Positions 1,910-51,710 of a DNA stretch of 64,000 nucleotides are shown here, in pieces. The DNA comes from Ranitomeya imitator. Its lineage: Eukaryota. The stretch lies in the NCBI RefSeq assembly GCF_032444005.1, contig NC_091282.1, positions 1,016,862,001 to 1,016,926,000 of the forward strand. The letters are read 5' to 3'. The notes under the pieces are model-generated. The model was not told the DNA's origin, made no database searches, and saw nothing but the letters and a program-made list of their open reading frames with translations. A program made the position numbers and the translations under genes. Position 1 is the stretch's first letter; each line of letters opens with the position of its first letter.

Positions 1910-3041
1910 TGAGTTGCCCGCCAGTTACATGGGGTACTCGGTACCAGGTCCTGCTTTTCACAGGGGTTATCATGATGGCTGCGACCCGGTCCGTGGCCCT
2001 GGGTGCCCATGTAAAAGAGAAAGGTCTTTAAAGGGATAAAGTTTATGTTCGTGACGCCACCTGTGGTATTCAGTCAGGGTGACCGACGCTGCTTTAAGGG
2101 GTCCGCTGGGGTGATGTTATGGCAGCTAGATGTTATACCTTCCCACAGGTGAAGTATAACCCCAGGGCTCCCGGTGTGTAGATGGTGGTATGGTGAGAGG
2201 TGGAGAGAAAAACGAGGACACAGGATTGCAGTCTCTTTACCTTGTTTACTGTTGGTTTCAGCAGCCACAGTCCAGGTCACTGGATCACAGGACAAGTAGG
2301 GTCTGGCCAGTTTGGAGGCAGGTCCAGAGTCCCCTTATCCAGGTGGAAAATAGAAGCCTTCCTTTGCATTTTAGTGGTGTAGTCCCTTACTGCTAAAAGC
2401 TTCACATAAGGTCCTCACAGATGTTATCTCTCTCTCTCTCTCGCTGTCCCCTGGATAGGATAGGATAAAACCCGAATGACTGGTGACTTGAGCCTGTTTA
2501 TAGGATCTCTTAGATGACCCGGCTCTGTGGGGTGTCACCGTGCCTCTTGGGTGTTGGGTCGGACAGGGAACTTGAAGTTCAGCCGGTCTCTGATGTAAGT
2601 CGTGGAAGTCCTTACAGTCTCAGTGTTCCGGCTACTGGATTTCTGCGCCTCAGAAGGAGGCAGCCTGCTCAGGGCTGGTCCCCTTCTGGTATCCTCTCCT
2701 GTGCTTCCTCTCCTGCATGCTCACTGCAATCAATTCTGCTTTCTAAAATGTCTCTTTCCAGGAGCTGTAGCACTGTGGCCTACACAGCTCCATAAACCCT
2801 CTGTCCTCCTCAGACTGATGTCTGGAATTCACTGACTTTCCCTACAGACTGCCAGTTCTATATATATGGGGAGTCACCTAGTAAATATGATGAAAAGCTC
2901 CCCCTGATGGCCTGGAGTGTGAATGTGTTGCATGTTTGTGGTACCTGGTTACAGTTATCCTTTCTTGCCTCTGAACGTAGCATCACTCTACCTGGGAGGA
3001 AAGCAATGCTACTGTGATGACCAGTACCCTGGGGCGCCACA
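1910..3041 (-). mobile_element. Solo LTR, tRNA-Ser(CGA)-primed family
   Basis: Reverse complement begins TGTGGCGCCCCAGGGTACTGGTCATCACAG, homologous to LTRs at 19123, 22044, 23984, 42336 and 50002; flanks TGTA/TCTA (imperfect 4-bp TSD). Confidence 0.8.
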
Positions 3042-3231
3042 TCTACATTTGTCATTCCCTTCTTCATCTCCTGACCCAGCTGCTCTTCTCCTCCCTGTCA
3101 GAGACTTTTGCTGTGGCTCATGAGTCATGCTGGGAAACTTACCTCGTGTTTCTACATAGAGCTTAGAAGGATTCAGCTCTTCAGTTTTTAATCACGAGAA
3201 GTCATAGATCTAGTGGAAAGAAAATAATTAT

Positions 3232-18581: not shown

Positions 18582-20252
18582 TTATTAGGCTGGTGGACAT
18601 TCCTCAACATGAAATTGAAACTCCAAACAGGAAAAGTCTGGGAATTATAGAAAACAAAAGATCAAAAGACTTGTTAATGACTTGAAAATGCTAAAAAATG
18701 TAAAACAGTTTTGGGCTTTCCGTCATAGGAGTTAATTTTCTCCCAGCAGCGGGGCTCTCAGTGAGGGGGCTGGGCAGCTTCAGAATGTTATTAACCTGCA
18801 GATTAATCCTATAACTGCTAGTTAATAGCAATTTTTTTTACATGACGTTTAAAGACTTTGCACTCATACAAACGTTAATTTTTTTACATACGATTATGGA
18901 TTTATGAGCAGCAAGGGCAAAAAAATAAACAGGTACACGCCTTGACATGCTATTAATGAGGTTATCAATGGTTGTCTGAAGAATGCTCTGCCACGCTGAA
19001 TGCACCTGGGCACACAAATCAACAAGATCAGCTGCTGGCAGCTCCCTATGCAAGTGCTAGTCACTGATGTCTCAGATGTGCTCACTGGGAGACAAGTCTG
19101 GAGATGCTGCAGGTCATGGTAGTGTGATGCCCAAGGGTCCTGGTCATCACAGTGGCATTGCTTTCCCCACAGGGAGAGTGATGTCACGCTTGGAAGCGAT
19201 GAAGGATATCTTTCACCAAGTAATCACATACACACAAGTTCAAACTCCAGGCCAGAAGGGGGAGCTCTAAAGCTGATTTCGGGTGAACTGCCCTATTAAT
19301 ACATTCTGGTCTGGAGGGAAAGAGTCAGTTAGTGAGCAGACTGTCAGAGGACAGAGACAAGGGCAGACAGACATAGAGTGTCAGAAGGTCTGAAGGGGTC
19401 ATGTAGTCTGCGGTACTACAGCTCCTGGAGAAAAGAGACCTTAGAAGGAACGAACAACTTGTGGGAAGTGTGCAGGAGAGAAAAGGCACAGGAGAGTGAT
19501 ACCAGAGCAGTGAATCAGCTACCTCCCTGGCTGACGCAGATTCCGGTAGCTGGAAGACCGTGGCCGTGCTGAACTCTAAGTGGCATAGCTGAAACTGGCA
19601 GGACAGCTGAACTTCAAGTTACCTGTCTGCCTTTACACCCAGGAGACACAGTGATACTTATAGGGCCCAGGTCCTGATAGAGACCCTATAAAAAAGACCT
19701 ACTTCACCTGTCTTATGGGTTGTGCCCTAACCTTTATGGGGGACAGAAACTGTGAGGACCTTATCAGAAGCCATAGGCAGTAAAAGATAACAACACCACC
19801 GCGCTTTGAGGAAGGCTTTCATCTCCACCTGGTGAAGGGGACTCTGGATTTTCTTCCAAGCCGGTCGGACCCTGCCTGTCCTGTGATCTAGTGCCCTTGA
19901 CTGCGGTTGCCTGAAGCTTCAGTAAACCAGGTAAAGAGACTGCAAACCTGTGTCCTCATTCCTTACTGCACCATTCACCACCTTCTATCTACACATCGGG
20001 AGCCCTGGGGACCCACTTCACCTGTGGGAAGTTATACCATCTAGCTGCCATAACATCACCCCAGATGACCCCTTTAAGCAGCGTAGGTCCCTACTGACCG
20101 AATACCACAGGTGGTGTCACGAACATAAACTTTAATCAAAATCCCTTTTTCATGGGCACCCAGGGTCACGGACTGGGTCGCCACCGTGACACATCCCTTT
20201 AAGTACTGGACCCGGTACCGAGTGCCCCACAGCTCTGGTGGGCGTTCCATTT

Positions 20253-20270
20253 TGGCGTCACGAACAGGAT
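20253..20270 (+). promoter_or_regulatory. Primer-binding site complementary to tRNA-Ser(CGA) 3' end
   Basis: TGGCGTCACGAACAGGAT is the reverse complement of ATCCTGTTCGTGACG+CCA, the 3' end of a vertebrate tRNA-Ser(CGA) isodecoder as I recall it; lies 3 nt after the LTR. Confidence 0.8.
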
Positions 20271-20312
20271 GGACCGATCCATTGGAATGGGTCCTGTACA
20301 CCATGGATTATA

Positions 20313-21605
20313 ATGGACTGTGTAAAATTATTAATGGCCACCATTGCTGCATCACGGGCGGATAAAGGAGGAAGATGTGTTGCCATGGGTGGAGTTAAAG
20401 AACCGGAGCAAAAGCTGGATCCACCCACTACAGAGACTTTAATGTCAGAAAAACATGTCCGTCACCAGGACGGATCCGCCCCCGGAGATCGCCGGCGGCA
20501 AAAGTGGAGCAGAGACCATCCACAAAATGGAGGAAATGAGGAGGAAGATGCGGGAAAGTGTGGCCGCAGCATGGCTGAATGCAACCCAGTAACTACATTG
20601 GCAGACAGCAGTGGAGAGCCGCCAGGACCTGCCAACACCAGAGAGGGTGTCCCCGGTCAGCAGCAACAAGAAACCACAGACCTGATGACCACCTTGGATC
20701 CGGAGCTCCTCGGTGCAGAGATAGAGGAGTTGGCCCTACAACTCCTGCAGACCCAGATGACAGTGGTGACCGCATGGAAGAAGTACCTGATCTGGAGGAT
20801 GAAGACCGCACAGATCCAGACCACATCACCAGCGCTCTCAGCCCCAGCGGAGCCAGAAGGAGAGACGCTGCTGAAGGAGTTGGCACCGATGGAAGATCCG
20901 GGGCCTGCACCTGTAACCCCAATGGAGCCAGAAAGTAAGGCACCGCAGGAAAGCGAGATGCTGCTAACAGAGATGACAACGCCACAGCACAAGGCCCTGC
21001 AGCCCGCGGACCAGGCGCCGCAACAAGTGATCCTGACCCCAGAGGAGGAGGGAAAAGACACCAGCACCGGTGAGACAAGTACGCAAACTGCCCCGGTAGC
21101 TGAAGACACCTTAGTGGGGCCCTTAGAACCACCGACGACTTTATCACCTGGCCAGACAATATCAGGCACAGTAACATGGGACCGCATGATAGACATAAGA
21201 CATGATTTAACTGACCCAATGACACCAGAATCATCGCCCCTGAAGGCGTACAGACCAAAAGAAGCCATATGCTCGAAGCACCCAAAAACTGACGTTATGG
21301 GATTCCCAGTAGAGGCCCATACAGCAGCTAACCGTGTGGATATACTAGCAAAAACCAGGTACCGCAAAGCTAAACCTGCAGACAGAGGACTATTAAGATC
21401 AGGATATTATGCCCTACATGTAAAAAGGTGCTCAGGACAGCAAATCCATATCCGTGTAGCCACTGAAAGTGGAACGCATCCCCAGTCTGCACAAACTGCT
21501 ATTGATGGACTGTTTCCTATTGAGTCACCAGTTGTGACATCTGCCAAAGGACTTGCCCAGTCAGGAAGCTGTGCACCCCAGGACCTGCTCTGGAAGAATA
21601 ATTAA
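20313..21605 (+). CDS. Uncharacterised ~430-aa ORF of the non-autonomous LTR element (frame open from 20238)
   Basis: Single long ORF in the gag position; Pro/Glu/Thr-rich; no CCHC, protease, RT or integrase motifs recognised. Confidence 0.5.
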   Translation: MDCVKLLMATIAASRADKGGRCVAMGGVKEPEQKLDPPTTETLMSEKHVRHQDGSAPGDRRRQKWSRDHPQNGGNEEEDAGKCGRSMAECNPVTTLADSSGEPPGPANTREGVPGQQQQETTDLMTTLDPELLGAEIEELALQLLQTQMTVVTAWKKYLIWRMKTAQIQTTSPALSAPAEPEGETLLKELAPMEDPGPAPVTPMEPESKAPQESEMLLTEMTTPQHKALQPADQAPQQVILTPEEEGKDTSTGETSTQTAPVAEDTLVGPLEPPTTLSPGQTISGTVTWDRMIDIRHDLTDPMTPESSPLKAYRPKEAICSKHPKTDVMGFPVEAHTAANRVDILAKTRYRKAKPADRGLLRSGYYALHVKRCSGQQIHIRVATESGTHPQSAQTAIDGLFPIESPVVTSAKGLAQSGSCAPQDLLWKNN

Positions 21606-23720
21606 AGGGACATTCACCTATGTGAAAGTAATATAAATAACGTTTAGTTGATGTTTTCTTTCCAGTTTAGAAGGACAACAGGGTAATGGACAATAATTAC
21701 CTGAGAACTTCCTTGTAATAGCACCCTAGTTCTACCCACTTTGCTGGCATGGGTAGGGCCTTGTTTACCTTGTTTTGCTTTAACAGGCCAAAAGAAGAAC
21801 TGTATGGCATTGAGGAGACCAGGACTGGTCAGTGCGCCTTTGTAAATAAATGTTTGCACTTTTACCTGTGTACACTTATGTTATTGTTTATGCAACATTC
21901 AAGAAAGCACACCTCCCATAAAGGGATATCTATGTTAATTTGTTGAAAAGCATTTTCAAAAATTTTTGTATGTATTTTATTATCCTGTAACAATTGTTGT
22001 TTCTTTTTCCCAGTCCAAGAGAACTGGATTTAACCGGGGGGAGTGTGATGCCCCAGGGTCCTGGTCATCACAGTGGCATTGCTTTCCCCATGGGGAGAGT
22101 GATGTCATGCTTGGAAGCGATGAAGGATATCTTTCACCAGGTAATCACATACACACAACACGTTTATACTCCAGGCCAGAAGGGGGAGCTCTAAACCTGA
22201 TTTAGGGTGAACTCCCCTATAAATGCATTCTGGTCTGGAGGGAAAGGGTCAGTTAGTGAGCAGACTGTCAGAGGACAGAGACGAGGGCAGACCAACATAG
22301 AGTGTCAGAAGGTCTGAAGGGGCCATGTAGACTGAGGTACTACAGCTCCTGGAGAAAAGAGAACTTAGAAAGAACAACTTGTGGAAAGTGTGCAGGAGAG
22401 AAAAGGCACAGGAGAGTGATACCAGCGGAGCAGAGCACTGAATTAGCTACCTCCCTGGCTGGCGAAGATTCTGGTAGCCGGAAGACCGTGGCCATGCTGA
22501 ACTCTAAGTGGCATAGCTGAAACCAGCAGGACAGCTGAACTTCAACTTAACTGTCCACCTTTACACCCAGGAGACACAGTGATACTTATAGGGCTGGGTC
22601 GTGATAGAGACCCTAGAAAAAGGCTTGCTTCACCTGTTATATGGGTTGTGTCCTAACCTTTATGAGGGACAGAGAGAACTGTGAGGACCTTATCAGAAGC
22701 CATAGGCATTAAGGACTACAACACCACCATGCTTTGAGGAAGGCTTTCATCTCCACCTGGTGAAGGGGACTCTGGATTTGCTTCCAAGCCGGCTGGACAC
22801 TGCCTGTCCTGTGATCTGGTGCCCTGGACTGCGGTTGCCTGAAGCTTCAGTAAACCAGGTAAAGAGACTGCAAACCTGTGTCCTCGTTCCTTACTGCACC
22901 ATTCACCATCTTCTATCTACACACCTGGAGCCCTGGGAACCTACTTCACCTGTGGGAAGTTATACCATCTAGCTGCCATAACATCACCCCAGAGGACCCC
23001 TTTAAGCAGCGCCTGTCCCTACTGACCGAATACCACAGGCGGCGTTACGAACATAAACTTTAATCAAAATCCCTTTTTCATGGGCGCCCAGGGCCACAGA
23101 CTGGGTCGCCGCCGTGACACATCCCCTTAAGTACTGGACCCGGTATCGAGTGCCCCACGGCACTGGCGGGCGTTGCAGTAGCATGTTTGGGTCACACAGG
23201 CTGTGAACAACATGCGGTTTGATATTCACATTTTGAAAAACAGCTAATGTAACACTTTGGAGATGTCTTTTTTATTTAGCAAGCAAAAGAACAATAAGTC
23301 AACATTTGGGTTTTGCTGACAAAATCTTTTAAGGTTTTCTATATTGTTTTTCTGCTGTTTTTGGTCTGACAGTGAAGACACTGGTCAAAAAATGTATGAA
23401 ACTGACTTTGGCACTCGCCCCACTTAACATATCCCAGGAGCTCACTTGAGTTCACTCTTTTAACTCTTTACAGGAATCTAGAGGAACCAAGACTGACAGA
23501 TGACATGTTATTATTATTGGCTGACGGCGCACACACGCTGCCCAGCAGGAGGGGAACACTACTAAAGCTGCAAACTGAGATTGCTGAATGGCAAGCAAGC
23601 CATTGGGCCCTCTCTTATCAGTACCTCCCACATGAATAGAGCAGAAAACAAATACTGTATATCATGCATATATGTTACCAAATCCAGCTGCTCTAGCTGC
23701 AGAAAACACAGACTGCCTTA

Positions 23721-25382
23721 GGGTGCGTGTTCACGGTCCGGATAGTCAGCGCTTTGGATAGAGCGGAAAACCAGGTCCACCCAAAGCGCAGCACCCTTCT
23801 GTACACGCGGTGATTCCAGATGTCTTCATTGCACACATCCGGAATCGCCGCACACTATACATAGGACTCTGTTATTTACCTTGCGGCAACGGAGCGTCGT
23901 CGCAAGGTAAACAGACATGCTGCGTTCTAAAAAGACACGCCGCATGTCCGGAAACGCAGGGCCGCCGGATGTGTGTTCGCACGTGGAGTGCCCCCGTTAG
24001 GGCAGTGGGGTACTCGGACCAGGCCCTACGTTTCTCAAGGGGGTTGTCACGGTGGCTGAACCGGTCCGTGGCCCTAGGGGCGTCCGTTGATATAAGGGGG
24101 AAAGGTCTTTAAAGGGGAAATGTTCGTGACGCCACCTGTGGTATTCTGTCAGGGTGACCGACGCTGCTTAGGGCTCCGCTGGGGTGATGTGATGGCAGCT
24201 AGTTGGTATACCTTCCCACAGGTGAAGTATGTCCCCAGGGCTTCCCAGGGTGTAGATGGTGGATGGTGTGTGGCACAGTGAAGAATGAGGACACAAGGGT
24301 GCAGTCTCTTTACCTTTTTACTGAAGGTTCAGCATCCACAGTCCAAAGCACCAGATCACAGGGCAGGCAGAGTCTGGCCAGTCCGAAGACAAATCCAGAG
24401 GCTTCCTATCCAGGTAGAAATCAGTAGCCTACCTCTAGCGCCTGTGTGTTGTAGTATCTCCCTGCCGTGTGTCTCGGTAAGGTCCTCACAACTGTTGTAG
24501 ATGTTCTAGATGTTATGTCTCTTTCTCTCTCTGTCCCCCTGATGGATAAGATAGGACAAACCCGTATGACTGATGGCCTGAGGCTTTTTACAGGGACTCT
24601 ACAATGCCCCGGCCCCCACAGTTGCCACCGTGCCTCCTGGGTATAAGGTCAGGCAACTAATATGGAACTAGCTGTCCTGCCAGTCTCTGGAGCCAGGCTT
24701 GGAGACGATGACTCCCTCAGTGTTCCGGCTACCGGCTTCTGCGCCTCAGAAAGGAGGCAGCCTTTTACAGGGCAGAACTCCTTCTGGTTTCCTCTCCTTT
24801 TTGCTATGACCTCATTTCTCACTCTCTGCAACGCAATTCCTTTCAATGTCTCTTTCTTTGGATGCTGCTGCACGTGGGGCAGGCCCCTCTGTCTAGGCCT
24901 CTGACAGGATCCCACCCCTGTCAGGGACCCACTACCTGAGCGAAGCCCAGATAGCAGCTCACTGGGTGAAGCCCAGCCAGCCTCCGCCAGACTGGTGCTG
25001 CTTGGGTGAAACCCAGCTCGCTTCTGCCTCACTTCCTGTCCAGCCCACCAGTTTTACCTGATTGTGAGGAGTGCCCTAATAGATAGGAGCATAGCTCCCC
25101 CTGGCTGACTGGAGTGTGAAGTGTGTTGTGTGGTTTGTGATACCTGGTAAAGTGATCTCCTTTATTGCCTTCAGACGTAATATCACTCCCCCTGGTGGAA
25201 GAACGACATTACTGTAATGACCAGGACCCCGGGTCGCTGCACACGCATAGTGGAGACCGAATTTCATAAAATCCCCTCCACTATGCTGTAACATCTGGAC
25301 GCTGCGGGTTGAACGCTGCGGTTGTACACAGCGTTCAATCTGTAGCTAATCCGGATGTAATCCGACATGGGGACACATACCC
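23721..25382. mobile_element. PIF/Harbinger-type MITE interrupted by a solo LTR
   Basis: GGGTGCGTGTTCAC ... GGGACACATACCC; TTA TSD (23718-23720 and 25383-25385). Confidence 0.7.
23984..25241 (-). mobile_element. Solo LTR, tRNA-Ser(CGA)-primed family
   Basis: TG...CA termini; perfect 4-bp TSD CACG (23980-23983 and 25242-25245). Confidence 0.9.
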
Positions 25383-41930: not shown

Positions 41931-43904
41931 TGGTGCAAATCGGCTCCGTACATTAGAAATCTTTTGAGAAGCCTATGTTCTTCTTACTAAATGTAACACA
42001 GAATTACTGCACAATGTGACTGATCACAAGATGTCAAGACTTGTGCAAAATTGTTACTAGGAGATCGGATAGCAGCGACATCAGTATGGATGTAGCAGAG
42101 CTGAGGCAGCATCAGTATTGATGTAGTAGAGCTGAGGCAGCATCAGTATGGATGTAGCAGAGCATAGGCGGCTTCAGTATAGATGTAGCAGAGCTGAGGC
42201 AGCATCAGTATGGATGTAGCAGAGCTGAGGTGGCATCAGTATGGATGTAGCAGAACTTAGTCAGCATCAGTATTGATGTAGCAGAGCTGAGGTGGCATCA
42301 GTATGGATGTAGCAGTGCTGAGGCAGCATCAGTATTGTGGTGCCCCAGGGTCTTGGTCGTCACAGTGGTATTGCTTTTCTCCAAGAGAGAGTGATGCTAC
42401 GTTTGGAGGCAAGAAAGGATAACTGCATCCAGGTATCACAAACATGCAACACATTCACACTCCAGGCCACCAGGGGGAGCTTCTGTTCCTATTTATTAGG
42501 TCACTCCCCACATATATATAACTGGTAGTCTGTAGGAAAAGTTAGTCAGTTCCAGACAGTAGTCTGAAGAGGACAGAGGGTCAACAGAGCTGTGCATGCC
42601 CTCAGAGCTGCAGCTCCCAGAAAGAGACATTGGAAGGTGGAATTGTATTGCAGCGAGCCTGAAGGAAGTCGAAGCAAAGGAGAGGATACCAGAAGGGGAC
42701 CAGCCCCGAACAGGCTGCCTCCTTCTGAGGCGCAGAACCCCGGTAGCCAGAACACTGAGGGAATAAGGACCTCTGCGCCTTATTTCAGAGACCGATGTAT
42801 AAGAATAAACGCGTGCACAGCCGTTTAAGAGGTGCCAGAGTAGGTTCCACCACCATAAGTTGTAGCAAAAAACTCAGACTTAACTTAATCAGATAAGTGA
42901 TTTAATGGTGTCCACGTTTAGTAACAGAAGAAACTGTGACGGGGTGTACGGCAGAGCAAGAAGGGACAACAGGCCGAGGGATGATTCAACAGATTTATTA
43001 TCAAGAACGCTGGAACAACACATGCAGGTAGATCTACAGAGTCCACAATTAGTCCAATGGAACAGGTTCGGGGGCACCTCCCGATAATCCTTGTGCCAGG
43101 TAACAAAGCAATAGTCCACAATTAGTCCAAGGGATCCCAAAACAATCTCACAAACGACGAGATATGTCCTCAGCTCAAGTCTCGCCCCGTTCGCTTCCAC
43201 AGTCCTAGATTGACGTGGGGTCTTGCCTCAGCTAAGAATCCCCACTCCTTCTCCTTCAAGGATCAACTCACATCTGATCTCAAAATAATAATGGATTGTC
43301 TGAGCTCCTGGGATCCGCCCATGAAGGGGGTAGGGGTTACACCTTCTATTCAATGGTTTGGTCCACCAGAAGATTCTAGACTGGTGGGCTCCAGACAGTC
43401 TATGTAATATGTACATTTGACTAGCCACCTGCTGTGAGGAAGAATGGCTATTCCTCCACTAGTGATGTTGACAAAGCTTAATTACATTAGAGCTTAGGGC
43501 TGCAAGTATTGGGGGAAGGAGACATTGTTACAGGTGAACTCCCAGCCAAGAAAATACATAAATTACAGCTAATAGAAACCAGAGAACAGTTACATACATC
43601 AAATGGCATATTATTCAAATACAGGACAGGGCAAAAGTACATATCATGACAATCCCTTCCCCTCCCAATTTGTGTACGTACCAGGGACCTCTACAGGTCG
43701 CTGGTTAAGTACACACAGGCAGAGCGTAACTTACATGTGGCTTCATGCAGCCATAAATTGGCATCTTAGCTCTCCCACATCATTGCCCAGGAGAACATCT
43801 GCAGGCAGACCACCCATCACCCCAACCACACATCGCCTGACCCCAAAACCAAAGTTCAGATCCACAGTGGCTGTGGGAATAGTCCTCCATTGTCCACCAG
43901 CCAG

Positions 43905-46464: not shown

Positions 46465-48327
46465 CAATAGTAGATCGTGAATGGGAGCTGGTGGACCCAA
46501 AAGATTGTGGGTTTTCATTGAAATCATAGGTATAGGTGGACACAGCCAGTGTCTCAGGGGGATGGTCGGATCTGGCGGTTTGCCTTATGTGATCTAGAGC
46601 CTGCGTGTCCGGTCAGTGGAGGACGCGGTATCCACCTCTCACGATTCTACCATCTACATACTGGGAAGCCCTGGGGATATACTCCACCTGTGGGAAGGTA
46701 TATCATCTAGCTGCCATAACATCACCCCAGCGGACCCCTTATAGCAGCGTCGGTCACCCTGACCGAATACCACAGGTGGCGTCACGAACATAAACTTTAT
46801 CCCTTTAAAGACCTTTCCCTTTTATACGGACATCCCAAGGCCACGGACCGGGTCAGCCACCGTGACATCGCCCTGTGAACCGCAGGACCCGGTACTGAGT
46901 ACCCCCTTGCCCTGACGGGGTGCTCCAGTATAGATGTAGCAGAGCAGAGGTGGCATCAGTATGGATGTAGCAGAGCAGAGTCGGCATCAGTATAGATGTA
47001 GCAGAGCAGAGGAGGCATCAGTATGGATGTAGCAGAGCAGAGGCGGCATCAGTATGGATGTAGCAGAGCAGAGGCGGCATCAGTATGGATGTAGCAGAGC
47101 AGAGGCGGCATCAGTATAGATGTAGCAGAGCAGAGGCGGCATCAGTATGGATATAGCAGAGCAGAGGTGGCATCAGTATAGATGTAGCAGAGCAGAGGCT
47201 GCTTCAGTATGGATGTAGCAGAGCAGAGACGGCATCAGTATGGATGTAGCAGAGCAGAGGCGGCATCAGCATGGATGTAGCAGAGCAGAGGCAGCATCAG
47301 TATGGATGTAGCAGAGCAGAGGCGGCATCAGTATGGATGTAGCAGAGCAGAGGCAGCATCAGTATAGATGTAGCAGAGCAGAGGCGGCATCAGTATGGAT
47401 GTAGCAGAGCAGAGGCGGCATCAGTATAGATGTAGCAGAGCAGATGCGGCATCAGTATGGATGTAGCAGAGCAGAGGCGGCATCAGTATAGATGTAGCAG
47501 AGCAGAGGCGGCTTCAGTATGGATGTAGCAGAGCAGAGGCGGCATCAGTATGGATGTAGCAGAGCAGAGGCAGCATCAGTATAGATGTAGCAGAGCAGAG
47601 GCGGCATCAGTATGGATGTAGCAGAGCAGAGGCGGCATCAGTATAGATGTAGCAGAGCAGATGCGGCATCAGTATGGATGTAGCAGAGCAGAGGCGGCAT
47701 CAGTATGGATGTAGCAGAGCAGAGGCGGCATCAGTATAGATGTAGCAGAGCAGAGGCGGCTTCAGTATGGATGTAGCAGAGCAGAGGCGGCATCAGTATG
47801 GATGTATCAGAGCAGAGGCGGCATCAGTATAGGTGTAGCAGAGCAGAGGCGGCATCAGTATGGATGTAGCAGAGCTGAGGCGGCATCAGTATGGATGTAG
47901 CGGAGCAGAGGCGGCATCAGTATGGATGTATCAGAGCAGAGGCGGCATCAGTATGGATGTAGCAGAGCAGAGGTGTCATCAGTATAGATGTAGCAGAGCA
48001 GAGGCAGCTTCAGTATGGATGTAGCAGAGCTGAGTGAGTCGTGTGTTATCTGGGGGAATTGTATTGTGATTTCTTATACACCACATTTATTGGGCATCAA
48101 GCGACTCTGCTCAAATTATGTCTTGTACTAATGTCACAGCATGTTCCTCTGCAATGTACTGGCATAACCCGGGGGCTGCTGGTCTAATACACGGCACATA
48201 CATGGTAACATGACTGCTTCAGCTCTGCTACACTGATTGTTTACAGTTATGTGCAGCCATCCACCTGATGTGTCCAATCTCCCCTCTCTAAAAGAGGACA
48301 GGGCTCAGCAGTTTTTGGCAGTCTAAA

Positions 48328-49644: not shown

Positions 49645-51710
49645 GACATCACGCTTTCCTCCGTACCGGAAGTCAGCTGCCTCGGAGTAACCCTTTACTC
49701 TGCCCTGTCCTTCAAACCGCACATCCAAGCTCTCTCCACCTCCTGTCGCCTCCAGCTTAAAAATATCTCCAGAATCCGTACTTTCCTCAACCGTCAATCT
49801 ACTAAAATGCTTGTGCACGCCCTCATCATCTCCTGCCTTGACTACTGCAGCATCCTTTTCTGTGGCCTTCCTGCTAAAACCCTTGCACCTCTCCAGTCCA
49901 TCCTTAACTCTGCTGCCCGACTAATTCATCTCTCTCCTCGCTACTCCTCCGCTTCCCCTCTCTGCAAATTTCTTGACTGGCTCCCATTCCCTCAGCGTAT
50001 CTGCAGCGCCCCAGGGTCCTGATCGTTGCAGTAATGTCGCTCTTCCACTTCCACCAGGGGGAGTGGTGTTACATCTGAAGGCAATAAAGGAGATCACCCT
50101 ACCAGGTATCACAAACCACACAACACACTTCACACTCCAGGCCGCCAGAGGGAGCCATGCTTCTATCTATTAGGGCACTCCTCACAACTCGGTAAAACTG
50201 GTAGTCTGGATAGGAAGTTAGAGAGAAGCTGGCTGGAGAGAGAGGGAGCCAGATGCAGACTGAGGTCTGCGGAGGACAAGGGTCCACGGAGCTGCGCCTG
50301 CCTCACGTGCTGCAGGATCCTAAGAAAGAGACATCAGAAGGGAATTGTCTTGTAGTGAGTGAGAAACAAAGTCATAGCAAAAGTAGAGGAAACCAGAAGG
50401 AGTTCTGCCCTGTAAAAGGCTGCCTCCTTTCTGAGGCGCAGAAGCCGGTAGCCAGAACACCGAGGGAGTAAGGATCTCTACGCTTTACTTCAGAGACTGG
50501 CAGGACAGTTAATTCCACGTTGGCTGCCTGACCTTATACCCAGGAGGCACGGTGGCAACTTGTGGGGGTCGGGGTGTGATAGAGTCGCTGTAAAAAGCCT
50601 CAGGCCATCAGTCATAAGGGTTTGCCCTATCCTATTGATCAGGGGGACAGAGAGAAAGAGACGTTACATCTACAATAGCTGCGAAGACCTCACCGAGAAG
50701 CTCAGCAGGGAGGAAATACAACACTCAGGCGCTAGAGGAAGGCTACTGATTTCCACCTGGATAAGGGAACTCTGGATTTGTCTTCAGACCAGCCAGACTC
50801 TGCCTGCCCTGTGATCTGGTGCTCTGGACTGTGGACACTGAAGCCTCCAGTAAAGGTAAAGAGACTGCAACCTTGTGTCCTCGTTCTTTACTGTGCCTCT
50901 CACCATCCACCATCTATACACTGGGAAGCCCTGGGGACATACTTCACCTGTGGAAAGGTATACCATCTAGCTGCCATAACATCACCCCAGCGGACCCCTA
51001 AGCAGCGTCGGTCACCCTGACCGAATACCACAGGTGGCGTCACGAATATTATCCCTTTAAAGACCTTTCCCCCATTTACAACGGACGTCCCTAGGGCCAC
51101 GGACCGGGTCAGCCACCGTGAGATCCCCCTTGAGAACCGAAGGGCCCGGCGCCAAGTACCCCACTGCCCTACTGGGGGCGCTCCAACATATACAGTTCAA
51201 ATTACTAATACTGACCTACAAAGCCATCCATAACCTGTCTCCTCCATATATGTCTCCCATTATCTTCCCTCACGTAATCTCTGGTCCTCCCAAGACCTCC
51301 TTCTCTCCTCCACACTTATTCGCTCCTCACCCAACCGCCTCCAAGACTTCTCCAGAATATCCCCCATCCTCTGGAATTCTTTGCCCCAACACATCTGACT
51401 ATCAACCACATTCGGATCCTAAAAACCCACCTCTTCAGGAAAGCCTACAGCCTGCACTGACCCCGCTGCCTCCTCACCACTACTGAAGCTACCGCCTCAC
51501 CAACACTGGAGCTCCTACAGCCCTCAACCTATTGTCTCCATCCCCACCATCCTGTAGAATGTAAGCCCACAAGGGCAGGGTCCTCGCCCCTCTGTATCAG
51601 TCTGCAATTGTTTGTTTGCTTACTGTATGTGATATTTGTAACTTGTATGCAACCCCTTCTCATGTACAGTACCATGGAATCAATGGTGCTATATAAATAA
51701 ATAATAATAA
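49645..51710 (+). mobile_element. L2 LINE 3' fragment interrupted by a solo LTR
   Basis: LVHALIISCLDYC...AARLI...LDWLP...QFKLLILTYKA remnants; (AAT)n tail. Confidence 0.85.
50002..51188 (+). mobile_element. Solo LTR, tRNA-Ser(CGA)-primed family
   Basis: TGCAGCGCCCCAGGGTCCTG ... GGGGCGCTCCA(ACA); approximate TSD TATC/TATA. Confidence 0.85.

What the first reader, a model, noticed from the sequence alone, without database searches (positions are those of the whole stretch)
20100..20270. LTR U5 region is complementary to both ends of its primer tRNA-Ser(CGA)
Seen: besides the true PBS (20253-20270), every LTR of this family carries a second PBS-like 14-mer, TGGCGTCACGAACA, about 130 bp inside its 3' end. 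It is perfect at 2046-2059, 24121-24134 and 46777-46790 and has 1-2 mismatches at 20112, ~23040 and ~51035; it is preceded by CA-GG like an LTR end. About 60 bp further on is GCCACCGTGAC (20180-20190, 24046-24056, 46856-46866; 10/11 at 23108 and 51112), the reverse complement of GTCACGGTGGC. That is the 5' end expected for this tRNA (acceptor strand plus the conserved UGGC of Ser tRNAs). Established: Ty1/Ty3 and HIV use extra tRNA-pairing boxes (bipartite PBS, PAS). Inference: the RNA may unzip the whole acceptor stem, bind two tRNAs to aid dimerisation, or decoy 3' tRNA fragments; alternatively the U5 arose by capturing an ancestral PBS plus leader.
Basis: partly seen in the sequence, partly recalled or inferred. 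Interest (0 to 1): 0.7.

Follow-up and report, generated by a model that had tools for sequence, protein, structure and literature searches.

The report
Retrotransposon clamps both ends of tRNA
Just before the site where a host tRNA primes copying, this jumping-gene family carries a conserved 11-letter match to that tRNA's other end, which likely grips the unzipped tRNA as in a cat retrovirus, and many copies also keep a shortened second primer site that likely does not start copying.

Summary
Both boxes are real, and the primer tRNA-Ser(CGA) gene exists, apparently as a single copy. The element is a non-autonomous Ty3/Gypsy LTR retrotransposon. The two boxes are separate things. Box 2 (complement of tRNA nt 1-11) is kept in all related lineages, including protein-coding ones. 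It is primer-specific and sits in the predicted loop of a conserved U5 hairpin, with no consistent partner in its own RNA. It likely pairs with the tRNA 5' strand freed by PBS annealing, as reported for FIV. Box 1 (13-14 nt PBS copy) ends a ~160-nt structured module. The module is present in 15 of 15 older pol-bearing copies and absent in 17 of 17 of the youngest pol clade, so it is not in every LTR and is dispensable. Box 1 does not pair with box 2 and shows no sign of productive priming. But 13 LTRs carry the true-PBS spacer in front of it, likely a template-switch footprint. The boxes are no more conserved than the blocks 5' of them. Nothing was tested biochemically. The scan noted a similar design in another genome (e1-7508199). 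Verdict: new variant of known extended primer-template pairing.

The parts
19119..19122 (+). 4-bp target-site duplication, left copy (right copy 23178-23181)
19123..20249 (+). 5' LTR (TG...CA), 91% identical to the 3' LTR
19921..19926 (+). putative poly(A) signal followed by a GU-rich stretch at 19949; places both boxes in U5 (inferred)
   Evidence: not mapped on RNA
19976..20135 (+). ~160-nt U5 module (edges approximate), predicted three-way junction; present in older pol-bearing and non-autonomous lineages, deleted in the youngest pol clade
20019..20027 (+). 5' strand of the module's 9-bp closing stem (partner 20105-20113, which includes the first 2 nt of box 1)
   Evidence: 97.5% of cells paired, no two-sided change
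20084..20099 (+). small hairpin in the module with one compensatory pair; its 5' strand partly complements tRNA nt 6-14 (inconclusive as a tRNA site)
20112..20125 (+). box 1: 13-14 nt copy of the PBS 5' part
20161..20237 (+). long U5 hairpin: outer stem 20161-20167/20231-20237, inner stem 20172-20179/20209-20216, box 2 in the apical loop (predicted)
20180..20190 (+). box 2: exact complement of primer tRNA nt 1-11
20214..20219 (+). 6-nt palindrome, candidate dimer contact (untested)
   Evidence: intact in 72 of 135 copies
20253..20270 (+). true PBS, 18 of 18 complementary to the 3' end of tRNA-Ser(CGA), after a 3-nt spacer
20271..22029 (+). internal region without gag/pol similarity (non-autonomous); 471-codon open frame with no Pfam family
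22030..22043 (+). polypurine tract region before the 3' LTR
22044..23177 (+). 3' LTR with box 1 (23040-23053) and box 2 (23108-23118)
23993..25233 (-). related LTR, box 1 at 24121-24134, box 2 at 24046-24056
46633..46927 (+). 3' part of a related LTR, box 1 at 46777, box 2 at 46856
50008..51185 (+). related LTR, box 1 at 51035, box 2 at 51112
1910..3046 (-). related LTR, box 1 exact at 2046-2059, box 2 decayed

Best explanation
This Ty3/Gypsy LTR element has an 18-nt PBS for a tRNA-Ser(CGA) found once in the genome, and its U5 carries an exact complement of that tRNA's first 11 bases, predicted to sit in a hairpin loop, which likely pairs with the tRNA's freed 5' strand once the PBS has opened the acceptor stem; the upstream PBS copy (box 1) is likely a captured primer site kept as a dispensable, non-priming tRNA dock. 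SHOWN: the two complementarities, the tRNA gene, conservation across subfamilies, loss of the box-1 module in the youngest pol clade, and rare transfer of the PBS spacer onto box 1. PREDICTED by folding: box 2 lies in the loop of a 15-bp U5 hairpin, and the first two bases of box 1, which would hold the tRNA's 3'-terminal CA, are buried in a 9-bp stem. INFERRED: (1) the tRNA 3' end anneals to the PBS; (2) nt 1-11 are released and captured by box 2, giving a 29-bp two-helix complex that stabilises or times initiation and favours whole tRNA over 3' fragments; (3) box 1 can hold a second tRNA or nascent cDNA without giving integrated products.
For: The tRNA gene has the exact predicted ends. The box 2 duplex is primer-specific: -24 to -26 kcal/mol, p<=0.007 in 5 of 5 family-A copies, against -12 to -19 for two other Ser tRNAs. 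Box 2 is kept where box 1 is absent: 13 of 23 exact in the young pol clade and the rest 1-2 changes (2 rows cut by locus ends dropped), and 13 of 14 in family B with one extra C. In 36 diverse family-A copies each of its 11 positions can pair with the tRNA in 30-36 of 36. Between-subfamily identity is 0.87 against 0.40 just 3' of it. It has no steady internal partner: box1-box2 pairing <=0.01 in 7 of 7, PBS pairing 0.00 in 13 of 15, and the local hairpin breaks its U-A pair in 31 of 37. The enclosing hairpin is 87% paired against 17-52% for slid registers. Net gain from box 2 pairing is negative in 14 of 14 leaders, and -8.5 or better in 11. Three other Ser-primed Gypsy families have their own boxes against tRNA nt ~4-16. 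Precedent: FIV (PMC3230847, PMC12509431, passages). Box 1: 14,167 exact genomic copies of its context; identity to the PBS is 0.71-1.0 over 14 positions and 0 at positions 15-16; none of 56 candidate LTRs ends there with a target duplication.
Against: There is no biochemical or RNA-end evidence (uninformative). The boxes are not the most conserved part of U5: 127 of 317 and 96 of 320 same-length windows are at least as conserved. Acceptor stems are self-complementary, so 6 of box 2's 11 nt also match the PBS, and 4 others match the PBS in another register. Covariation in the hairpin is weak (15-120 of 500 shuffles reach the observed values). Box 2 positions 7-9 are often paired in single-sequence folds (unpaired 0.28-0.34). 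G.U-compatible changes are also what CpG decay produces. Three of seven independent Ser-primed lineages show no 5'-end box, and in two that do, the box overlaps the LTR terminus. The energies omit the loop-closure cost of a non-nested complex and tRNA modifications. Second-tRNA binding at box 1 is unfavourable or near zero in 3 of 7 copies, and the module is dispensable.
Confidence: 0.55

Rival explanations
1. Both boxes are kept for base-pairing inside the element's own RNA (a folding switch or acceptor-stem mimic). The match to the tRNA 5' end follows from the symmetry of the acceptor stem.
For: Six nt of box 2 complement the PBS and box 1. PBS pairing is 0.40 and 0.50 in 2 of 15 folds, and local pairing reaches 0.84. 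The alignment fold pairs 5 nt of box 1 with a downstream segment and 2 nt in the closing stem.
Against: No one internal register explains all 11 nt. Box1-box2 pairing is <=0.01, box 2 persists without box 1, and the local hairpin is broken at one pair in 31 of 37.
Confidence: 0.18
2. Box 2 pairs with the tRNA, but box 1 has no role. It is a relic of an old recombination at a PBS, carried along by a structured module selected for something else (packaging, poly(A) control), and occasionally refreshed by template switches with the PBS.
For: The module was lost in the youngest pol clade. Its stems are more conserved than box 1 (0.96 vs 0.85). The PBS spacer is copied onto box 1 in 13 of 56. Box 1 is deleted with the tail kept in 14-15 of 56.
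Against: Box 1 positions 8-14 stay PBS-like across subfamilies 74-84% identical while the next 30 nt diverge to 0.40. Visible conversion is about 0.1% of copies (13 vs 14,167).
Confidence: 0.15
3. The pairing is in trans: a tRNA on one genome's PBS (or box 1) binds box 2 of the co-packaged genome and bridges the dimer, as proposed for Ty3 and Drosophila Gypsy.
For: A trans bridge avoids the non-nested topology. Bridging by the primer was shown in vitro for Drosophila Gypsy (PMC1635307, section 19). The tRNA 5' end is itself near-palindromic (-15.5 kcal/mol homoduplex).
Against: Sequence cannot tell cis from trans. [quoted passage not shown] A separate palindrome candidate lies at 20214-20219.
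Confidence: 0.08
4. Box 1 is a working second primer site, or a decoy for inhibitory 3' tRNA fragments.
For: Its CA + 2 nt + TGG geometry resembles an LTR end. One LTR (L268) joins the module directly to a full PBS. 3' fragments inhibit mammalian ERVs (PMC7472051, passages).
Against: Only 56 genomic copies deviate after the CA against 14,167 intact, and none of the 6 scored as ending there is a short LTR with a target duplication. Box 1 binds more weakly than the PBS.
Confidence: 0.04

Closest known systems
FIV U5 stem-loop / tRNA-Lys3 5'-end interaction (Miller et al. 2001, seen only through PMC3230847 and PMC12509431, passages)
   Same: [quoted passage not shown]
   Different: Here it is an env-less Gypsy element with a Ser primer and an 11-nt perfect complement of the whole 5' acceptor strand plus nt 8-11; it is untested.
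HIV-1 primer activation signal and A-rich loop (PMC11181671, section 7 and passages)
   Same: U5 motifs upstream of the PBS that pair with the primer and co-vary with primer choice.
   Different: PAS pairs with the T arm and the A-rich loop with the anticodon; box 2 targets nt 1-11.
Ty1/Ty3 bipartite PBS (PMC5371799, PMC11381356, passages)
   Same: A retrotransposon primer held at more than one site.
   Different: Ty3 has an 8-nt 5' PBS completed by U3 sites for the T and D arms, and its tRNA 5' end stays free. Here the PBS is a full 18 nt and the extra site lies 62 nt upstream.
Drosophila Gypsy second (3') tRNA-Lys2 site (PMC1635307, abstract and sections 19, 21)
   Same: A second primer-binding site that anneals tRNA but is not needed for cDNA synthesis.
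   Different: That site is near the RNA 3' end and pairs with a different tRNA region; box 1 repeats the PBS itself inside U5.
Barthez / PNMA-related vertebrate Gypsy clade (PMC11117352, PMC4131045, PMC11011659, passages)
   Same: LTRs near 1 kb, separate Gag of ~350 aa and Pol of 1200-1400 aa, PR-RT-RH-IN order, weak PNMA hit in Gag.
   Different: The assignment is by size and domain resemblance only; no reference sequence was available for a tree.

Membership tests
Ty3/Gypsy LTR retrotransposon | LTRs TG...CA, target duplication, PBS, PPT | tested here: met
Ty3/Gypsy LTR retrotransposon | pol order PR-RT-RH-IN in autonomous partners | tested here: met
   Family B and pol-bearing family A; the window copy itself has no gag/pol similarity.
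Endogenous retrovirus | env gene, retroviral-type RT | tested here: inconclusive
   Pfam on the Gag and Pol frames of one family-B copy gave retrotransposon-type RNase H and integrase domains and no env family; no dedicated env search or retroviral reference tree was run.
Barthez/PNMA-related clade | RT phylogeny with named references | not testable with these tools
   PNMA 24.7 bits against cutoff 25; no PDB hit for Gag.
FIV-type U5/tRNA 5'-end interaction | U5 sequence complementary to the primer's extreme 5' end | tested here: met
FIV-type U5/tRNA 5'-end interaction | site displayed on a conserved U5 stem-loop | tested here: inconclusive
   87% of cells paired, weak covariation; 73 of 124 single folds form the inner stem.
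FIV-type U5/tRNA 5'-end interaction | pairing governs initiation of minus-strand synthesis | not testable with these tools
   needs probing and primer extension
PAS-type signal | pairs with the T arm of the primer | tested here: not met
   In family A the only U5 signal at z<=-2 is for the window at tRNA nt 1 (windows covered nt 1-66).
PAS-type signal | co-varies with primer identity | tested here: inconclusive
   4 of 7 independent lineages show a 5'-end box; best for the own primer in A, C, H, not in D.
Ty3-type bipartite PBS | short 5' PBS completed by a distant site | tested here: not met
   The PBS is a full 18 of 18.
Functional second primer site (box 1) | integrated short LTRs ending at the CA before box 1 | tested here: not met
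   0 of 56 with a target duplication; one case (L268) unresolved. Only copies with two non-G bases after the CA were searched.
Known structured RNA / ribozyme (module) | Rfam match | tested here: not met
   three chance-level hits far below gathering scores

The most novel reading that the evidence does not exclude
A vertebrate Gypsy clade reads both ends of a rare, single-gene tRNA. The PBS and a loop-displayed box exchange strands with the whole acceptor stem, which selects intact tRNA over inhibitory 3' fragments, while a captured, 3'-blocked PBS copy parks a second tRNA. Sister families have re-tuned the 5' box to their own primers, and parasitic non-autonomous copies keep the second dock that the youngest helper lineage lost.
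Probability: 0.22. Interest if true: 0.72.

Novelty: new variant of a known kind. Interest (0 to 1): 0.45.

Why it matters
Extended primer-template pairing has been worked out in a few retroviruses, yeast Ty elements and Drosophila Gypsy. Nine literature searches (listings, open-access library only) showed no description for vertebrate Gypsy elements. If real, this extends the FIV-type interaction to a high-copy retrotransposon clade and gives a natural series for testing it: with or without box 1, bulged or perfect box 2, three different Ser primers. It also suggests how thousands of elements could rely on one tRNA gene and tell whole tRNA from 3' fragments (inferred).

Tried and rejected
1. 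A captured whole antisense tRNA between box 1 and box 2: the spacing fits, but the middle shows no tRNA match of 8 nt or more in the LTR ends scanned, and it varies freely. 2. A box1-box2 helix: <=0.01 in 7 of 7. 3. A local hairpin as the reason for box 2: one pair broken in 31 of 37, no covariation. 4. My interim idea that the module is specific to non-autonomous copies: refuted by 15 of 15 older pol-bearing copies. 5. A third full tRNA box in the module hairpin: only tRNA nt 6-7 and 9-14 are kept, nt 8 in 55%, nt 5 in 0% of 75; inconclusive. 6. A ribozyme or known RNA family in the module: no Rfam hit. 7. A donor for the module: hits only to family-A-like modules in the flanks or nested insertions of the fetched loci. 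8. A sister family primed by the multi-copy Ser(CGA) isodecoder, which would be the cleanest covariation test: 0 matches. 9. A Ser(TGA) gene pattern: 0 matches; the matching gene was found instead in L128. 10. Other species: 0 hits in metagenome contigs; no relatives are held for this genome. 11. Expression: no RNA holder listed; the four runs laid are contigs and cannot show starts or ends. 12. The 2-nt spacer variants before box 1 (18 of 56) are not counted as evidence, because double point mutation could produce many of them (5 of 83 unselected copies differ from GG). 13. Earlier notes e1-9592278 and e1-9002883 did not bear on this. No supplements were read.

Full report
OBSERVATION. Every coordinate in the finding is correct. 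The element spans 19123-23177, with 1.13-kb LTRs 91% identical, a 4-bp target duplication, an 18-nt PBS after a 3-nt spacer and a purine tract. Its 1.8-kb interior has no Pfam family and no gag/pol similarity, so it is non-autonomous. The predicted tRNA gene exists and is tRNA-Ser(CGA) by ARAGORN. It matched once in 5.96 Gb and was 1 of the first 100 listed of 459 Ser-type 5' ends. The PBS pattern for it has 7,045 matches, including some double counts; the pattern for the tandemly repeated isodecoder has 0.

WHAT FAMILY. The 24 distinct LTR ends printed from 30 PBS loci fall into two families: A (14, the window's) and B (10). B encodes Gag with a zinc knuckle and PR-RT-RH-IN. Pol-bearing A elements are its sister, about 70-81% identical in integrase. 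Four other Ser-primed families with an RT are 54-64% identical to B. All look like Ty3/Gypsy. Sizes resemble the Barthez group (PMC11117352, table passage), which is a lead and was not tested.

THE TWO BOXES HAVE DIFFERENT HISTORIES. Box 2 is in all A lineages and, with one extra C, in 13 of 14 B LTRs. Box 1 ends a ~160-nt module. The module is present in 15 of 15 scorable older pol-bearing copies (21 examined) and absent in 17 of 17 scorable copies of the youngest pol clade (21 examined). That clade nests inside module-bearing lineages at 100/98 support, so the module was likely lost there, not gained by the non-autonomous copies. The sequence after box 1 is the U5 tail shared with B, not a former leader.

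CONSERVATION. I aligned 62 module-bearing U5 copies and used the 54 in five subfamilies 74-84% identical. Between-subfamily identity is 0.85 for box 1 and 0.87 for box 2, about equal to within-subfamily values, and falls to 0.40 immediately 3' of each. But the blocks 5' of each box are as conserved (0.86-0.96), and 127 of 317 and 96 of 320 windows equal or beat the boxes. About half of these copies were fetched by similarity to the window's U5, which biases towards conservation; the PBS-fetched copies are free of this bias and have an exact box 2 in 11 of 14. In 70 copies box 1 matches the PBS at 0.71-1.0 over 14 positions and at 0 at positions 15-16.

STRUCTURE. The block 5' of box 2 is explained by a long U5 hairpin that closes around it. 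In 37 diverse LTR ends (44 representatives; 5 false anchors and 2 atypical ends dropped) its 15 pairs are 87% formed, against 17-52% for slid registers, with weak covariation. The inner stem forms in 73 of 124 single folds. The competing local hairpin has one pair broken in 31 of 37. Box 2 does not pair with box 1 (<=0.01 in 7 of 7) and rarely with the PBS (0.40 and 0.50 in 2 of 15). The module folds as a three-way junction, 97% paired in 22 copies (25 representatives, 3 mis-anchored dropped), with one compensatory pair. Its closing stem holds the first two bases of box 1. There is no Rfam match.

PAIRING WITH THE PRIMER. Box 2 gives -24 to -26 kcal/mol with its own primer's 5' end (p<=0.007 against shuffles, 5 of 5 copies) and -12 to -19 with two other Ser tRNAs. 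Family B is borderline (p 0.05, 0.07). After opening costs, the added pairing is favourable in 14 of 14 leaders (-2.7 to -13.8), before an unknown loop-closure cost. Other families: one primed by Ser(TGA) ends its LTR with 10 bp against its own primer's nt 4-13 (p 0.003-0.053, 4 copies). Two Ser(AGA) families have boxes against nt 7-15 and 1-16 (p 0.013-0.023), and three have none. A scan along the tRNA gave z<=-2 at the 5' windows in 5 of 9 U5 rows and 0 of 9 leader controls, over a background of 7 of 126 cells in the control. Counting A+B and the two F rows once each, that is 4 of 7, P about 0.003-0.012. This is moderate support: two of those boxes overlap the LTR terminus, and one is not primer-specific.

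IS BOX 1 USED? Priming there would leave LTRs ending at the CA before it. Against 14,167 intact contexts, only 56 copies have two non-G bases after that CA, and all 56 were read. In 33 box 1 continues after a changed spacer, 14 lack box 1 but keep the tail, 3 are small duplications, and 6 were scored as ending. One of those 6 is another deletion with the tail kept; the other five show no target duplication or partner LTR. So there is no sign of productive priming; one LTR joined to a full PBS (L268) stays unresolved. Unexpectedly, 13 of the 33 carry the 3-nt spacer that precedes the true PBS in 19 of 27 family-A junctions. These include both LTRs of one intact element and some pairs or duplicates, so perhaps 8-9 events. 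A repeated 3-for-2 replacement is unlikely by point mutation. It is most simply a template switch between box 1 and the PBS during reverse transcription (inferred), at about 0.1% of copies. A second tRNA at box 1 is predicted favourable in 4 of 7 leaders.

MECHANISM. Most likely the PBS opens the acceptor stem and the loop-displayed box 2 captures the freed nt 1-11 (about 0.7 for this part alone). Box 1 is a captured PBS kept as a dispensable, non-priming dock (about even odds against a relic). All functional steps are inferred. An earlier scan note on another genome (e1-7508199) read a similar LTR as an internal folding switch; I did not check its DNA, but it prompted the internal-pairing tests, which do not favour that reading here.

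COMPARISON AND NOVELTY. It would work like the FIV interaction between the primer's extreme 5' end and a U5 stem-loop (PMC3230847, PMC12509431, passages; the original paper was not seen). It is not a T-arm PAS (PMC11181671, section 7) nor a Ty3-type split PBS (PMC5371799, passages). Box 1 recalls the dispensable second site of Drosophila Gypsy (PMC1635307, sections 19 and 21). Nine searches of the open-access library listed nothing on this for vertebrate Gypsy elements; subscription papers and Repbase were not searchable. Verdict: a real feature, a new variant of a known kind, interest 0.45.

Noticed in passing
G000:C3:679031408-679031489 (L001) vs C4:683.58-683.72 Mb (L133-L149): About 7,000 PBS matches point to a tRNA-Ser(CGA) isodecoder found once, while the isodecoder in a large tandem array has no matching PBS.
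   Followed up: partly
L221, L223/L224, L240/L241, L244, L253/L254, L256, L259, L274, L276: The 3-nt spacer of the true PBS replaces the 2-nt spacer before box 1, a likely reverse-transcription template-switch footprint.
   Followed up: yes
window 20214-20219: 6-nt palindrome in the U5 hairpin, intact in 72 of 135 family-A copies and also seen in family B; candidate dimer contact.
   Followed up: no
window 20005-20010 and 20059-20064: Two conserved 6-nt segments that are complementary and would form a pseudoknot across the module's closing stem (seen).
   Followed up: no
L040, L043, L044, L055, L058, L063, about 48 nt before the PBS: Family B has a 10-nt complement of tRNA nt 40-49, exact in 6 of 10 copies, and a splice-donor-like motif further upstream.
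   Followed up: partly
L001 tRNA nt 1-11: The primer's 5' end is near-palindromic (homoduplex -15.5 kcal/mol against -7.4 and -11.4 for two other Ser tRNAs), recalling the Ty3 tRNA-tRNA bridge.
   Followed up: partly
window 20190-21605; L071, L074, L076, L078, L081: Non-autonomous copies carry unrelated open frames of 300-470 codons with no Pfam family.
   Followed up: partly
L280 (G000:C4:55.02 Mb): A family-A LTR inserted inside the module of another family-A LTR with a 4-bp duplication.
   Followed up: no
L190/L191 (L194): Two truncated family-A LTR pieces with box 1 extended to 16 nt flank an unrelated Gypsy pol (35% RT identity) 6.7 kb apart.
   Followed up: partly
window 42079-42335 and 46926-48034: A family-A LTR (42332-42600 and 46633-46927) is split by other insertions and sits inside a 31-bp satellite array.
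   Followed up: no
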